From an uncultured Alphaproteobacteria bacterium (lineage in GTDB: Bacteria; Pseudomonadota; Alphaproteobacteria; RUG11792): 46,757 nt of DNA. Of the stretch, positions 37,401 through 43,400 are shown in pieces. Position 1 is the first letter of the stretch. The number at the start of each line of letters is the position of its first letter. The position numbers were made by a program. The DNA lies in contig CANBDL010000001.1 in assembly GCA_947367345.1 (NCBI GenBank), positions 1-46,757 on the forward strand, given 5' to 3'.

Positions 37401-40400
37401 ATTCAAGAACCCGAGCGATGATACCAGATCAGCCTGGCAGCTCATAAGAGAAGCTGGGGCCCACGAGATTATTATAGGAGGAGCAAGAATGTCAGAGATG
37501 CATAGCAATTTTCTCGTAAACGATGGTACAGCGACTGCATCAGACGTGATATCCCTAATATCAAGTGTTCAAGATCTTGTATTTAAGAAAACTGGCATTA
37601 TGCTGGAGCCGGAAATAAAGATCATAGGGAGAGATATATCATGAGTATATTAATGTATTGTACTTATTGATATGGTGTATGTATTGTGTATATATGTATA
37701 TAGGGTGTGTATATGAATGTCAAGCAGCTTAGTCGTACCTCATTCTCAGGCAGGATTTGGTATATCAATGACCATGATTCGGTGCGAAATCACAAAGATT
37801 TGTCTCAGGTCGGAGCAACGATTATGTATAATCGCGGCATCACAAACCACAACGAGATAGATATATTTTTGAAGTCTAAGCTCAAGAATACCATAGTAGA
37901 TCCTTATAAGCTGAAGGATATGCAGAAGGCGACCGAGAGAATATGTCGGGCAATAGAACAAAAGCAAAAGATATTGGTATTTGGGGACTATGATGTGGAC
38001 GGGGTTACTTCAACATGTATAATGGTTCGCTTCCTGAGGGATCTTGGATGCCTATGTGAGTATTTTTTGCCAAATCGATTCAGCTGTGGATATGGCTTCT
38101 CGTCGGACTCCTTTGATCACATCAATAATGATGTCGATCTTATAATAGTCTTGGACTCAGGCGTTAATGCGGTGGATGCGGTTGAGAAGGCTAGAGGTCT
38201 CGGCATAGATATTGTCATATGCGACCACCATCTGCAGACTGTTGATGTCTTGCCAAATGCATGCGCAGTAGTAAACCCAAATCGCCGAGACCAGGATGAT
38301 ATGGACGGGATACACCTTAAGTATTTGTGCGCTGCCGGGGTTACATTTATGCTCATCATAGCCATAAGGAGATATCTCAAGCGCCGAGACATAGATATAG
38401 ATAAATACATCAGCGTTGTTGCCCTCGGTACACTATGTGACGTCATGAAATTACAGGGTATAAATAGGGCTGTTGTGAAGTATACATTGGATAACCCGAA
38501 CTATATACCTGGTCTTCAGGCTATGCTGAATTGCTGCGGCATAGAGAATGCCAGGAACTCGGACGACTTCGCCTTCTTCGTTGGGCCACTCATAAACGCC
38601 GCCGGCCGCATAAAAGACCCTACGATAGCTCTCGATATATTACTTGACGATGATTATCTGTCGGCCGTCAGGAAGGTCACGATCCTACAAGAGCTAAATA
38701 AAACTCGTAAGGATATAGAGAAGGACGTAATAAAAGAAGCTATAGCCGAAATAGATACATGGGATACAGATAGAAGAGCCATATGTGTACATGGTGACGG
38801 ATGGAACGAGGGGGTCATAGGCATAGTATCTGGCAAACTCAAGGAAAAATACCACAAACCAAGCTTCGTAATAGCATTCAACGGAGACAGGGGTAAGGGG
38901 TCGGCCAGATCTGTGCCGGGCGTCAACCTGGAACTTGTCTTCAGGAATGCTTTAGCCGAAGGTTTGCTTGTAAAGGGTGGTGGCCACGCGCTCGCCGGAG
39001 GCTTCGAGATAGAGAGACATAAGGTTGGTGATTTTGTTAGCTTCCTGGAGAGAGAGTGTGTGTACGAGAGAGACAACAGATTGAATATAGACTATGTCAT
39101 TACACCTGACTCAAACTTCGACAAGATTATAGACGATCTCAGAATACTCGAACCATTCGGCAACGGATTCGCCAAACCAATATTCATGATGAAGAATGTA
39201 ATAATTACAAATACAAAACTCAGCAACAACGAACAACATCTTACTTTATACTTTAGAACAGCCATATCAAATACAACAATGAGAGGCATGATTTTTCACA
39301 TAGCATCAAAGCAGCAACTCATCAGAGGCATCAACGACAACAGAACGGCCAAATTCGACCTGGCTGGCTTCCTGAACCATAGCGAACAATTCGGCACAAG
39401 TATAATTATAGAGGATGTGAAGTTGTGGGAGTAGATAAAAATAGATAAGAGAGATGAGTGTGTGTGCCAGTTTTTAAATATTTGTTAATATTTTGAGCAT
39501 ATAATATACATATCTACAGGTATATAGTTATATTGTTTGTTATGAAGTTATACAATATTATTATGTATATTACAATCGCTTGCTGCTCACTTATTAGTAT
39601 AAAATCAGTAACCAATGAAACAATACCATTTCCAAGGTATGATAGAGATTCGCTGCTATCTCAACTAGAAAGAGATTGTTTGTCGGAATTGGTGGCGCAA
39701 TACGAAGATAAAGATCATTATTTATTCGAAGTAAAGAATGGTCGTGTTGATTCAGAAAAAGAACCAAATTTAATGGATTCAGATGATTTTTTGAAAAGAA
39801 CATATGGATCGTATGGAATTGAAATAAGTAAGATTGATAATTTATGCCAAAAATTTCAAGAATGCATGTTAATATCTATCAATGAGCAAGATGGAGTGAC
39901 AAGAAATGATTTTGACATAATGCTAAAAGAACATGCAAAAAACAAAATAGGCAGAGAATTAATGTACAGAATTATAGCAAAATTTGATGCCAGAAAAAAA
40001 TGTGTTGAATCTTTGGAAAGAGTTGTAACAAAAATTACAAACGATATTAAAGATCAATCTAATAATTTATCTAGTTCGTTAGAAATGGCGCAGCATGTAA
40101 CAAATAATATTGGTAATTATATAAAATACGATAGCGATAGCAATAAAAAAGTTGATATAGAAAAGATAATGTTGGCACCTACGAAATTTGACAATATTGA
40201 TATATGCAATGATAACAATAAGATACAAATAATACAGAGAGATATATCAAATTCTAGGCAGATGAATTTATTGGAGGTTAATAAACATTTGGTATTATTT
40301 CAATCTATAATAAAATCAATACATAATTACATTCAAAAAACAAGACTAACAATATTTTGCGGAAAACAATATAATGCTTCATACAACATAGATAGCACAA

Positions 40401-43400
40401 AACAGCAAATCATCAATAGTATAAAAATTAACTGCTTACCAAGTTATTATAATATAGTTTCTGGACCATTAACAGTTGACGAAGGTATCCAGTATATAGA
40501 AACAGATTATTTAGATATGCCAGATCATTCTGTCTTTAATCATGAGCTAGGGCACTATTTTAGAATGTGCCTTGAATGTGCTTATAAATATGCAGGACGT
40601 ACAGAAGTATTATTGCAAGATATTAGAGATATTTTAATATATAAAGGTATAATTAATCAGGATTATCGTATACATCATATATGGACCGATGCTGAAGAAC
40701 TAAATGAAATATTTGGTATAAGGTTAGTAACAAATCCAGACGGAACAAAAACATTACAGAGAGATAGAATTAATCAATCGGAATATAATTTGGATATTGC
40801 TAGCCAGAAGCGTATAGATAGATTTGGTATTAGATATGGGCATCTTGCATGTAGAGTACTGCTAGCTCCATATAAATTATTTTATGCTGCATTTGGCAAA
40901 CATAATGTTAACCCAAGTGACAACGAGGTAATTGACAATTATTTATCTGCATTAGATATTGTTAATAAAAGGAAGTGTGCATATAAGACATTGTACAAAT
41001 AACTGTACAATATGATACAATTTAGATGAGCTTTTATTGTTATTAAAAAATGAGGTCGAGATGAATACCATAAAATCACTTGTATGTTTAGTAATGTTTG
41101 CGCTTAGTCGAAGCGTTAGTTGCTCTTCTGCAACTGATAGCTATATGCATGATTACAATCTATTAATTCATGATAATCGTAAACCTATTATCTATTGCGA
41201 TAATGATCAATTCAGCAAAACTCATGATGTAGCATTCAAACCTATAACTATTACGCTTGAAGAGGCAAATGGTAACCAAGTTACGAAAGACTATAGAACA
41301 ATCAGAGATGTGCAAATGGATTTGTATAAGTATTGGAAATCTATTGATGGTTATAGTTATAATAATTATGATGTTAATAATTTTAACAAATTATTTAGTA
41401 TAATAGACGATTTTAAAGAGTATGTTTTATATATTACATACGATAGAACGGTTTGTTTTAAGAATGCTGATGAGCGTGTTAAAGAAAAAGTAGAAGAGGA
41501 TAATGCATTAACTGCTGCTGTGGAAGATTTGGGGTTGTAATAAGCGGGAATTGATATATTGCTCAGTTCTGTTGTGTGTTAAGATAAATAAAAGTAGTAT
41601 TATATGAATATTGCTTGTTTACTGATCTATAAAGTATTTATTACTTTCACAAATGTATTCAGTAAAGATGCATATATGAAAGGAATAAAAATAAATGCTA
41701 TATGGTCTTAGACTTTATACGACTCCTTAATCACAGCGAGCAGTTTGATGTCAGTATAATTGTATATGATGAAAGTTGGCGGGGTAATTTTCATTTATGT
41801 TGAAAATCTGCGTCGATAATTACCACAATTGTAGATTTGTTTTGTTATCCCAAATACATAAAATATTATGTGAGGATTTTATTCTTTTGTTATATAGATG
41901 CTTTTGTTTTTTGTGTGCGCCAGGTATTATTATCATTTCGTTTTCATTATTTTATGCTAAAATGTTGATGTGAGACGTAATTTTGAAGATATACAATGCT
42001 ATCAACAACAAAAGAAATATTCTCGTCAACAAGAGGGGCAATTGCGGCATTTAACTGGTATAATATGGAAACCGCTAAAGCAATAAGTACGGCTGCTAAT
42101 GAATGCAAGAGGCCTGTGATACTTCAGATATCTGAATCTGGTATTAGATATATGGGTATCCCGTGCCTGAAGGGTATGATGAGCGCGATACTCGAGATAA
42201 CAAAAGTGCCAGTCGCCTTTCATCTAGACCATGGTTCTAGCATTGAATCATGTATACAGGCAATATCTCTAGGTTTTTCGTCTGTTATGATTGATAAAAG
42301 TCATGAGCAGCTAGAAAAAAACATAGAATACACAAAGCAAGTTGTAGATTACATCAAAAAACATAATATAAATACTTCTGTCGAGGCAGAACTTGGTACA
42401 CTAGCTGGGATAGAAGACGATATCAATGTAGACGAAAAAGATGCTGTATATACAAACCCGGATGTTGCTAAGAGATTTGCCGAAGAGACCGGGATAGATA
42501 GCCTTGCAGTTGCAATAGGCACAAGCCACGGAGCCCACAAGGGTAAAACCAAGAGCCCAAAACTCGACATAGAACGCCTCATCGAAATACATAAAAACAC
42601 TCAAGGATTACCACTTGTACTCCACGGAGCATCAGGGGTGTCTCATGATGACATAAATATATGCAATATGTATGGAGCCAAAATAGAAAATGCTTTTGGT
42701 ATTACAGATGATGACATAAGGGCCGCAATCCAGCATGGAGTTAAAAAAATCAACATAGACACAGACCTGCGTATAGGCTATATGGCTGCGCTTCGTAAAG
42801 GATTGCACGAAAATAACAGCAGTATTGATGTCAGAAAATTACTTACAATGTCAAGCGATAGAATGAGAGAGGTTGCGGTAGAGAAGATTAAATTATTTGA
42901 CTGTAACTAGTAGTGTATTTATACTTCCTTTAGACATGATTAAGTTCATGTCTTGATGTTATGATAAAATGTTGTGAGAACGGACTCATACATATAAAAA
43001 ATGACGCTTGCCCAAATAAGATCATCATTTCTATCATTCTTCCAATCCAATGATCACAGGATAGAGGAGTCGTCACAGCTCATACTCCCAAACGATCCGA
43101 GTATAATGTTCGCAAACGCAGGTATGAATCAGTTCAAGGATATCTTCTGCGGCCGAGTTGAGGCTCAATACAAGCGTGCGACTACGTGCCAGAAGTGCCT
43201 GAGGGCCGGCGGTAAGCACAACGACCTCGAGAATGTAGGTTACACGGCGCGACACCACACATTCTTCGAGATGCTCGGGAACTTCTCCTTCGGCGATTAC
43301 TTCAAGGAGCAGGCAATATGCTACGCCTGGGACTTCGTATCAAATCAGCTTGGTATACCGCAAGAAAAGCTCATGGTCACAGTGCACTCATCTGATCCTG

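What the first reader, a model, noticed from the sequence alone, without database searches (positions are those of the whole stretch)
39435..41800. The HExxH islet is bracketed by the functional recJ 3' end and a decayed duplicate of that end, an insertion scar
recJ ends at 39434 with ...AKFDLAGFLNHSEQFGTSIIIEDVKLWE. About 2.3 kb downstream, just after the two islet genes, the plus strand reads ...LDFIRLLNHSEQFDVSIIVYDESWR (41708-41782). By eye, nucleotide similarity is about 65-70% over at least 55 nt. A weaker, stop-interrupted continuation runs upstream (FHKCIQ*RCIYERN versus FHIASKQQLIRGIN).

Chance is an unlikely explanation for 11 identities in 18 residues placed exactly downstream of the same gene.

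The simplest reading is that the 39.4-41.7 kb block inserted into the 3' end of recJ while supplying a substitute gene end, as integrative elements that target gene 3' ends do. The alternative is that a local duplication of the recJ end preceded the insertion. Either way it marks the two secreted-protein genes as an acquired or mobile cassette, and it defines the cassette's boundaries.
Basis: seen in the sequence. Interest (0 to 1): 0.65.

Follow-up and report, generated by a model that had tools for sequence, protein, structure and literature searches.

The report
Foreign recJ tail inside acquired islet
A 2.5-kb AT-rich block carrying two secreted-protein genes sits at the very end of recJ in this mouse-gut symbiont, is missing from a close relative, and carries at its far end a leftover recJ tail that is too diverged to be a copy of the resident gene, so it reads as an ordinary imported islet rather than a self-duplication scar.

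Summary
A recJ-like 3' remnant (core 41708-41803, possibly from 41645) lies 2.3 kb downstream of recJ on the same strand. It scores tblastn E=0.002, and a profile built only from other organisms' RecJ tails is matched or beaten by 1 of 3000 shuffles.

A close relative (L010/L011) has an empty site. Its recJ runs straight into fba, and window 39432-41919 (2488 nt, 29% GC) stands in place of 51 nt. That block holds both genes and the remnant.

This changes the interpretation in three ways:
- The working recJ end is the resident one (97.8% identical to the relative, dS 0.08). It lost only six tail codons and took its TAG stop from the insert.
- The remnant lies inside the block.
- The remnant differs from the resident end mostly at synonymous sites (pS 0.93, pN 0.23). 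That is far older than the split from the empty-site relative, so it is not a fresh duplicate of the resident end.

The block's last ~275 nt look like a deeply diverged, colinear homologue of recJ end, tail and spacer. There is no integrase and no terminal repeat.

Best reading: the islet was imported by recombination from a diverged relative's recJ-fba locus. Known kind, modest interest.

The parts
37707..39434 (+). recJ, a single-stranded-DNA exonuclease gene (575 codons; gene callers start it 2 codons later). It is intact and resident-type to codon 574, and its stop TAG (39432-39434) comes from the inserted block.
   Evidence: Pfam DHH, DHHA1 and RecJ_OB. The last 510 nt are 97.8% identical to the empty-site relative L010, with dS 0.08. 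GC3 of the last 55 codons is 0.57.
39295..39431 (+). The part of the working recJ end that has a counterpart in the remnant (FH...IIIEDVKLWE). It ends exactly at the left junction.
   Evidence: Direct repeat D1, tblastn, junction alignment.
39432..41919 (+). Lineage-specific low-GC block (2488 nt, 28.8% GC). It stands where the relative has 51 nt, made up of recJ tail codons GEDCNF, the stop and a 30-nt spacer. It has no terminal direct or inverted repeats and no recombinase gene.
   Evidence: L010 1-510 matches 38922-39431 and L010 562 onward matches 41920 onward. GC. End-repeat test not significant. Present in every run and contig of the W and M lineages.
39542..41002 (+). Cargo gene 1, 486 aa (an upstream TTG at 39533 would give 489 aa). 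It has an N-terminal hydrophobic signal-like segment and an HExxH motif (NHELGHY). It belongs to a rare uncharacterised family in which H334, E335, H338, E386 and H434 are invariant, so it is a putative secreted zinc metalloprotease.
   Evidence: Homologues P0122 and P0123. 49 representative clusters among 1.84 billion proteins. Invariant columns. No Pfam or PDB sequence match. The AF2 model is unusable, pLDDT 40.
41061..41540 (+). Cargo gene 2, 159 aa (167 aa from the TTG at 41037). It is a small protein with a signal-like N-terminus. A small signal-bearing ORF follows the HExxH gene in every locus seen, but the sequences are not detectably homologous to this one.
   Evidence: ORF list. Paired arrangement in L008, L009 and L010. 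No family hit.
41645..41707 (+). Possible upstream extension of the recJ-like remnant (FHKCIQ*RCIYERNKNKCYM), with an in-frame TAA at 41663-41665.
   Evidence: Included in the profile alignment. It scores -0.6 bits alone and adds about 3 bits in context.
41708..41803 (+). Core recJ-like 3' remnant (LDFIRLLNHSEQFDVSIIVYDESWRGNFHLC*). The conserved G and E of the family motif QFGxSIIIED are replaced by D and Y, so it is not functional. It carries its own tail and stop.
   Evidence: Tail comparison with L010 and L003.
41869..41919 (+). Last 51 nt of the block. Positionally it is homologous to the 51 nt of recJ tail plus spacer that it replaces in the relative, but deeply diverged from it.
   Evidence: Anchored ungapped comparison gives 28/51 matches, shuffle p=0.0004, and offset controls give 12-23. 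The next 100 nt are 100/100 identical to L010.
41920..41995 (+). fba leader and promoter region, identical in the islet-bearing and empty-site lineages. The right junction is at its 5' edge.
41996..42910 (+). fba, a class II fructose-bisphosphate aldolase gene. It is the right-hand core flank.
   Evidence: Pfam F_bP_aldolase. 95% aa identity to the relative's P0124.

Best explanation
Window 39432-41919 is an accessory islet that replaced 51 nt at the recJ-fba junction in this lineage of a mouse-gut Holosporales-like bacterium. It brought in three things:
- a two-gene module, a signal-bearing HExxH zincin-like protein plus a small signal-bearing protein;
- the TAG that now ends recJ six codons early;
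- at its distal end, about 160-275 nt that are a deeply diverged homologue of a recJ 3' end, its tail and the recJ-fba spacer.

The working recJ end is the resident one. The remnant is therefore not a copy of the resident gene made at insertion.

It is most simply donor DNA, meaning the flank of the same locus in a distant relative or a very old allele in which the module already lay beside a recJ 3' piece. On this reading the block entered by recombination. The right-hand crossover fell where homology becomes good (41919/41920). The left-hand join was illegitimate or homeologous, at the last codons of recJ (39431/39432). That is a homology-facilitated, replacement-type import rather than integrase-mediated insertion.

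Shown: the remnant is real; the empty site and both junctions; the resident nature of the working end; the age and selection signature of the remnant; the absence of a recombinase and of end repeats; and active recombination with diverged donors.

Inferred: the donor locus, the direction of the event (gain here rather than loss in the relative), and the recombination mechanism.
For: - Empty site: L010/L011 align to 38922-39431 at 97.8% and to 41907/41920-45519 at 93%. Only 51 nt lie between the two matches.
- Direction of the event: the relative's recJ tail ...GEDCNF* (GATTGTAATTTT) is shared with the outgroup P0002/L003 tail ...IDCINFVGI* (GATTGTATTAATTTT) and with no other of 120 RecJ homologues. 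The long tail is therefore ancestral and the window's truncation is derived.
- Age of the remnant: 22/60 differences from the resident end, split 7:3:12 by codon position (Fisher p=0.011), with pS 0.93 and pN 0.23. Window versus relative dS is 0.08 (recJ), 0.15 (fba) and 0.30 (alaS). The probability of 22 or more differences in 60 if divergence were 0.20 or less is 0.002.
- The substitutions go both ways: by my own reading of the codon table, about six AT->GC and eight GC->AT changes across the 16 codons from LNH to D. That is not simple AT-biased decay.
- The remnant is no closer to the resident RecJ than to distant ones.
- It is colinear with recJ end, tail and spacer. The global alignment beats all 300 shuffles, and the last 51 nt match at 28/51 (p=0.0004), immediately before a 100/100 identical stretch.
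- Composition: 28.8% GC against 44% in recJ.
- Cargo mobility: family members lie in other low-GC islets here (31689-33036, downstream of glyS), in the relative (after alaS, where the window has a PDDEXK_2 gene) and in unrelated genomes.
- Recombination is active: window versus the main mouse-gut lineage (L014-L019) shows long identical stretches broken by patches with up to 35 differences per 250 nt.
- No terminal repeats, no tRNA or Rfam element, and no recombinase domain in the block.
Against: - No donor has been found. No RecJ between 60 and 90% identity exists in the 5.8-billion-protein collection, so the origin of the remnant is inferred from divergence alone.
- The selection signature rests on 20 codons (p about 0.01-0.05, depending on the null model).
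- Only 510 nt of the relative's recJ are available, and there is only one empty-site lineage (two identical contigs).
- The outgroup does not have recJ next to fba, so the direction of the event rests on the tail motif and on parsimony.
- The model needs the donor to have had the module upstream of a recJ 3' fragment.
- The remnant tail (41772-41803) and the block's last 51 nt both resemble the same 51 nt of the relative. The fine homology map is therefore ambiguous.
Confidence: 0.55

Rival explanations
1. This would be an e14/phage-21-type event. An integrative element inserted about 47 codons before the recJ stop, brought a surrogate end and displaced the native end (the remnant). Later homologous recombination with islet-free relatives overwrote the surrogate end with the resident-type sequence right up to the edge of homology.
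For: - The geometry matches the known icd - e14 - icdC arrangement (PMC13626634): gene, then element, then a same-strand 3' fragment with its own tail, stop and spacer.
- The remnant is colinear with recJ end, tail and spacer up to the right junction.
- Recombination patches are common in this organism.
- The last 21 nt of recJ carry 2 of the 11 differences from the relative, both non-synonymous.
Against: - If the remnant were the displaced native end, it should match the relative's recJ end at roughly the genome-wide level (dS 0.08-0.30). Instead pS is 0.93.
- There is no integrase and no att-like repeat.
- The model needs a second event whose end point coincides with the stop codon.
- The native tail and spacer do not follow the remnant at high identity.
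Confidence: 0.2
2. On this rival the islet and remnant are ancient in this clade. The remnant would be an old local duplicate that decayed in place, and the empty site in L010/L011 would be a secondary deletion.
For: - Reductive genomes delete accessory DNA.
- The remnant has lost conserved residues and carries an in-frame stop.
Against: - A deletion cannot recreate the 51 nt of the relative, which encode the tail motif shared with the outgroup.
- The excess of differences at third codon positions (12 of 20, against 10 of 40 at positions 1 and 2) and the two-way substitution pattern do not fit pure decay (the substitution directions are my own reading of its codon table).
- The flanks next to the junctions are the most similar parts of the two lineages, not the least.
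Confidence: 0.12
3. On this rival the resemblance is chance similarity in AT-rich intergenic DNA and there is no remnant.
For: - The match is short (20-47 codons), and the nucleotide alignment is reached by 1 of 500 shuffles.
- The upstream extension is not significant on its own.
Against: - Independent tests agree: tblastn E=0.002, and an independent family profile reached by 1 of 3000 shuffles, with no false hit in the rest of the window or in 110 kb of related loci.
- The strand is the same, the position is immediately downstream of the same gene, and the tail is colinear.
Confidence: 0.03

Closest known systems
e14 / phage 21 prophage integration into the 3' end of E. coli icd, leaving the icdC 3' pseudogene fragment at the far end of the element (Hill et al. 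1989, as described in PMC13626634)
   Same: - An element sits at the 3' end of a housekeeping protein gene.
- A same-strand 3' fragment of that gene lies at the element's distal end.
- The two copies differ mainly by synonymous changes.
- Empty sites exist in relatives.
   Different: - Here there is no integrase and no att core.
- The block is 2.5 kb with two cargo genes.
- The gene-attached end is the resident one, identical in type to the empty-site allele, not an element-borne surrogate.
- The distal fragment is the diverged copy and is not the native end.
- 51 nt of the target were replaced, so the event was not a reciprocal crossover.
Homology-facilitated illegitimate recombination / homeologous replacement during uptake of foreign DNA (described for naturally transformable bacteria; recalled from general knowledge, not tested here)
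   Same: - One junction lies where donor and recipient become highly similar.
- The other junction has no homology.
- A short stretch of recipient DNA is lost.
- Foreign DNA, including a diverged homologous flank, is carried in.
- No mobile-element machinery is needed.
   Different: - The donor, the uptake route and the recombination proteins are unknown for this uncultured, probably intracellular bacterium.
- The event is inferred from one comparison.
Strain-variable effector islets in Holosporales/Rickettsiales-type symbionts
   Same: Low-GC islets with orphan, signal-bearing genes lie between conserved core genes and differ between close relatives. Recombination-associated genes are abundant nearby (three PDDEXK_2 genes in 46 kb).
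   Different: The cargo family (HExxH...E...H, 49 clusters) matches no described family. No secretion or effector evidence was obtained.

Membership tests
Integrase-mediated integrative element targeting a gene 3' end with a surrogate end (e14/icd type) | The element encodes a site-specific recombinase (tyrosine or serine integrase). | tested here: not met
   The block has only two ORFs of 100 aa or more. Neither has any Pfam hit, even at E<=10.
Integrase-mediated integrative element targeting a gene 3' end with a surrogate end (e14/icd type) | The gene-attached 3' end is element-derived and differs from the allele of empty-site strains. | tested here: not met
   The working end is 97.8% identical to the empty-site relative up to 39431, with dS 0.08 and GC3 0.57.
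Integrase-mediated integrative element targeting a gene 3' end with a surrogate end (e14/icd type) | The distal fragment is the displaced native 3' end, followed by native downstream sequence. | tested here: not met
   pS is 0.93 against the resident end. The sequence after the remnant is not native-like until 41920.
Integrase-mediated integrative element targeting a gene 3' end with a surrogate end (e14/icd type) | A direct repeat of the gene's 3' end brackets the element, and an empty site exists in relatives. | tested here: met
   Repeat of 48-63 nt at 71%. Empty site in L010/L011. The distal copy lies 116 nt inside the right junction.
Insertion sequence / transposon | Terminal inverted repeats, a target-site duplication and a transposase within the unit. 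| tested here: not met
   The best end-to-end direct and inverted matches are no better than shuffles. There is no transposase in the block. The nearest PDDEXK_2 gene is 3.7 kb away.
Replacement import by homologous or homeologous recombination | An abrupt switch from deep divergence to near identity at a junction, loss of recipient DNA, and evidence that recombination with diverged donors occurs in the organism. | tested here: met
   55% identity switches to 100/100 at 41919/41920, and 51 nt are replaced. Divergence from lineage L014 is mosaic.
Replacement import by homologous or homeologous recombination | An identified donor allele carrying the same block. | not testable with these tools
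   No intermediate RecJ and no second context for this exact block turned up in the collections searched.
Zincin metalloprotease (cargo gene 1) | An HExxH motif plus a downstream third zinc ligand, conserved across the family. | tested here: met
   H334, E335, H338, E386 and H434 are invariant in 32 sequences.
Zincin metalloprotease (cargo gene 1) | The zincin fold, or membership of a described peptidase family. | tested here: inconclusive
   No Pfam or PDB sequence match. The AF2 model has pLDDT 40, so no fold search was run.

The most novel reading that the evidence does not exclude
The recJ-like piece may be more than passive baggage. It could be a homology 'address label' that travels with a family of integrase-less effector cassettes and steers them to the 3' end of recJ in new hosts by homeologous pairing. 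That would be a recombinase-free form of site-preferring mobility in intracellular symbionts. A related possibility is that the 41.5-42.0 kb stretch covering the remnant is an abundant transcript with a function of its own.
Probability: 0.08. Interest if true: 0.7.

Novelty: new member of a known kind. Interest (0 to 1): 0.35.

Why it matters
The case gives a cleanly delimited gain of an accessory islet in an uncultured, probably protist-associated, bacterium of the mouse gut, with both junctions mapped to the base. It shows that a gene-end repeat beside an islet need not be the displaced native end. Here codon-position analysis and an empty-site relative reverse the intuitive reading. It also flags a rare, uncharacterised family of signal-bearing HExxH proteins that change position between close relatives, which makes them candidates for host-interaction factors. 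Finally, it documents frequent recombination with diverged donors in this lineage.

Tried and rejected
- The genome-contig scan with RecJ peptides found no relative.
- Exact 38-nt fba-leader scans of JGI metagenomes and GTDB genomes found nothing.
- Contigs L001 and L002 are 100% identical to the window and so uninformative.
- Twenty public runs were laid on the region to look for islet-free reads or excision joints. None was found. The one 'joint' is a 21-nt chance match on an unrelated contig.
- An apparent third lineage in runs X16, X30 and X32, with an identical islet but diverged fba, first looked like recent islet transfer. Linked contigs L014-L019 showed it is the same clonal frame with recombination patches, so I dropped that argument.
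- I looked for a glyS 3' remnant beside the second cassette copy. There is none.
- The weak hit of ORF 16506-17060 to the HExxH family is spurious. That ORF is a lipoate/biotin ligase-family protein.
- A simple Campbell or att crossover inside the recJ homology is rejected. Native tail and spacer do not follow the remnant, and the 51 nt are missing from both sides.
- The structure prediction of cargo gene 1 was too poor to search.
- The RNA fold of 41541-41925 is marginal, z=-1.96.

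
Full report
**Setting**

The window comes from a Holosporales-like alphaproteobacterium. The best named RecJ homologues are 'Holosporales bacterium' MAGs at 42-46% identity, and the closest protein (P0002) is 59% identical.

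Near-identical DNA occurs in many mouse-gut metagenomes.

The gene order around the finding is:
- murB, 36736-37644
- recJ, 37707-39434
- an HExxH ORF, 39542-41002
- a small ORF, 41061-41540
- fba, 41996-42910
- alaS, 43001-45571
- a PDDEXK_2 gene, 45608-46561

Yes.

The repeat 39370-39417 / 41724-41771 (48 nt, 71%) is the longest direct repeat in 39.0-42.1 kb. A gapped local alignment covers 63 nt at 71%, and 1 of 500 shuffles reaches its score. tblastn of RecJ against the downstream 2.56 kb gives 12/20 identities, E=0.002.

As an independent test I built a profile from the last 95 residues of 70 other RecJ proteins, leaving out the window's own.
- In the six-frame translation of the whole window it hits only recJ and this fragment.
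- On the 455-nt interval it scores 14.3 bits, and 1 of 3000 shuffles reaches that.
- It gives nothing above 3.3 bits in about 110 kb of related loci.

The stop-interrupted upstream continuation is not significant alone. It scores -0.6 bits by itself and adds about 3 bits in context.

The remnant runs to its own stop at 41801-41803.

**The decisive comparison**

A search with Fba found a 95%-identical protein (P0124). It lies on two identical contigs, L010 and L011.

L010 1-510 aligns to window 38922-39431 at 97.8%. From L010 562 onward it aligns to 41920-45519 at about 93%. Between those matches L010 has 51 nt where the window has 2488 nt (39432-41919).

So a close relative has recJ running straight into fba. 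It lacks both cargo genes and the recJ-like remnant.

The relative's RecJ ends ...IIIEDMKLGEGEDCNF*, and the window's ends ...IIIEDVKLWE*. The window's TAG is the first triplet of the inserted block.

The DC(I)NF tail, with its GATTGT...AATTTT nucleotides, is shared with the outgroup P0002/L003 and with none of the other 120 homologues. I therefore take the long tail as ancestral and the window's truncated end as derived. That means gain of the block here rather than loss in the relative.

A simple deletion in the relative could not recreate those 51 nt.

The working recJ end is not a substitute supplied by the islet. It is the resident sequence, with dS 0.08 to the relative and GC3 of 0.57 in the last 55 codons, against 0.12-0.30 in the cargo gene.

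The remnant lies inside the lineage-specific block, 116 nt from its right edge.

It is also far too diverged to have been copied from the resident gene at an insertion that postdates the split from the relative.
- Over 20 aligned codons there are 22/60 differences.
- They are split 7:3:12 over codon positions (Fisher p=0.011).
- pS is 0.93 and pN is 0.23.
- Window versus relative dS is 0.08-0.30.
- The probability of 22 or more differences in 60, if divergence were 0.20 or less, is 0.002.

By my own reading of the codon table, the changes go both ways: about six AT->GC and eight GC->AT across the 16 codons from LNH to D. That is unlike pure AT-biased decay.

At the protein level the remnant is about as close to distant Holosporales RecJ tails (scores 59 and 58) as to the resident one (63). 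At the nucleotide level it is 72-77% identical to L003 and L004 over shorter stretches.

The LNHSEQF...SII match therefore mostly reflects a family-conserved motif kept under selection. The remnant was part of a working recJ in some other lineage for most of its divergence. It has since lost the conserved G and E of QFGxSIIIED and gained an in-frame stop.

**Anatomy of the block's right end**

The stretch 41645-41919 aligns colinearly with the relative's recJ end, tail, stop and spacer. The global score is 20, against -26 +/- 9 for shuffles.

The last 51 nt match the relative's 51 nt at 28/51 without gaps when anchored at the junction. The shuffle p is 0.0004, and offset controls give 12-23 matches.

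The next 100 nt are 100/100 identical.

This abrupt step from deep divergence to identity looks like a recombination end point.

The remnant's own tail (AAGTTGG..GGGG..TAATTTT) also resembles the same 51 nt. The fine homology map is therefore ambiguous.

**What the block is not**

- Its ends share no direct or inverted repeat beyond chance.
- It holds no tRNA or Rfam element.
- Its two ORFs have no recombinase or other Pfam domain.
- Because the 51 nt are missing from both sides, the event was a replacement, not a reciprocal att or Campbell crossover.

**Cargo**

The HExxH protein has only two detectable relatives in the 5.8-billion-protein set and 49 representative clusters among 1.84 billion proteins. 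H334, E335, H338, E386 and H434 are invariant in 32 sequences.

It matches no Pfam family and no PDB sequence. The AF2 model is unusable, at pLDDT 40.

In L008 (a genome of about 30% GC, where the pair is tandemly duplicated) and in L009 the gene is again followed by a small signal-bearing ORF, in unrelated contexts.

Within the window a second, frame-split copy (33036-31689, minus strand) plus a small ORF forms a second low-GC islet downstream of glyS. It has no glyS remnant.

The empty-site relative carries a family member (profile E=4e-18) in a 27.7% GC islet after alaS, where the window has a PDDEXK_2 gene instead.

So these modules change position between close relatives.

**Population data**

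All contigs from 20 runs carry the islet, and there is no excision joint.

Linked contigs of the main mouse-gut lineage (L014-L019) differ from the window as follows:

| Segment | Differences / nt compared |
|---|---|
| islet | 4 / 2488 |
| recJ | 30 / 1725 |
| spacer + fba | 18 / 991 |
| alaS | 111 / 2571 |

The differences come in dense patches, up to 35 per 250 nt, separated by long identical stretches. This is one clonal frame with many recombination imports. It does not show that the islet is younger than its flanks. It does show that recombination with donors diverged by 10% or more is routine in this organism.

**Most likely mechanism**

I put confidence at about 0.55. The block was imported from a diverged relative's (or very old allele's) recJ-fba locus, in which the module already lay next to a recJ 3' piece.

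The right-hand exchange fell at 41919/41920, where homology is good. The left-hand join was illegitimate or homeologous, at the last codons of recJ. The recipient lost 51 nt.

The remnant is then donor flank carried in passively.

The rivals are set out with their evidence in the Rival explanations section:
- an e14/icd-icdC-type integration (PMC13626634) followed by overwriting of the surrogate end
- ancient duplication with loss in the relative
- chance similarity

**Verdict**

The thing itself is a genomic islet of a known general kind with an instructive twist. Interest is moderate to low.

Noticed in passing
window 30700-33100 (minus strand: 33036-32122, 32174-31689, 31619-30909): A second low-GC islet (28.7% GC) lies directly downstream of glyS. 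It holds a paralogue of the HExxH gene, split into two overlapping ORFs (304 and 161 aa, 24-32% identical to the first copy), plus a 236-aa signal-bearing ORF. There is no glyS remnant next to it.
   Followed up: partly
L010 4279-6566: The empty-site relative has its own 27.7% GC islet after alaS. It holds a 530-aa member of the same HExxH family (motif HELTHCFH, profile E=4e-18) and a small signal-bearing ORF. The window has a PDDEXK_2 gene at that position.
   Followed up: partly
window 12881-13870 (-), 29973-30659 (-), 45608-46561 (+), fragment 29708-29971; direct repeat 29840-29971 / 30117-30248: There are three PDDEXK_2 ('PD-(D/E)XK nuclease family transposase', Rpn-like) paralogues in 46 kb, plus a 71%-identical partial copy and a 132-nt direct repeat at 93% identity. 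One copy borders the second islet. These are possible drivers of illegitimate recombination.
   Followed up: no
window 36500-46100 versus L014: Divergence from the main mouse-gut lineage is mosaic. Long identical stretches alternate with dense patches, for example 60 differences in 44750-45250. alaS is 856 aa in the window and 861 aa in the other lineage. This is a signature of frequent recombination imports.
   Followed up: partly
window about 41050/41470-41920/42040: In four runs of one study (X16, X30, X32, X37; library kind unknown) the contig covering the ORF167 3' end, the remnant and the fba leader has a depth of 11.6-27.3, against about 3-10 for fba contigs. Several contigs start at 41473-41517 and end at 41922-42038. 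This may be an abundant transcript over the remnant. The RNA fold z-score is only -1.96.
   Followed up: partly
L003 11724-11787 and 11891-11954: In the closest other species, a 64-nt sequence that starts within the last codons of recJ is repeated 167 nt downstream at 94% identity, and the contig ends just after it. The recJ 3' end may be a rearrangement-prone spot there too.
   Followed up: no
L004 9723-11438; L004, L005 and L006 downstream of recJ: The murB-recJ pairing is conserved in distant relatives, but everything downstream of recJ differs. L004 and L005 carry a UCH (ubiquitin C-terminal hydrolase-like) gene there, a eukaryote-like candidate effector.
   Followed up: no
window 41702-41803: The remnant core forms a 33-codon ORF that starts at an ATG (MVLDFIRLLNHSEQFDVSIIVYDESWRGNFHLC*). 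There is no evidence that it is translated.
   Followed up: no
window 41920-42019: The fba leader and first codons are 100/100 identical between the window and the empty-site relative, although neighbouring coding DNA is 93-96% identical. Either the region is strongly constrained or there was a recent exchange.
   Followed up: no
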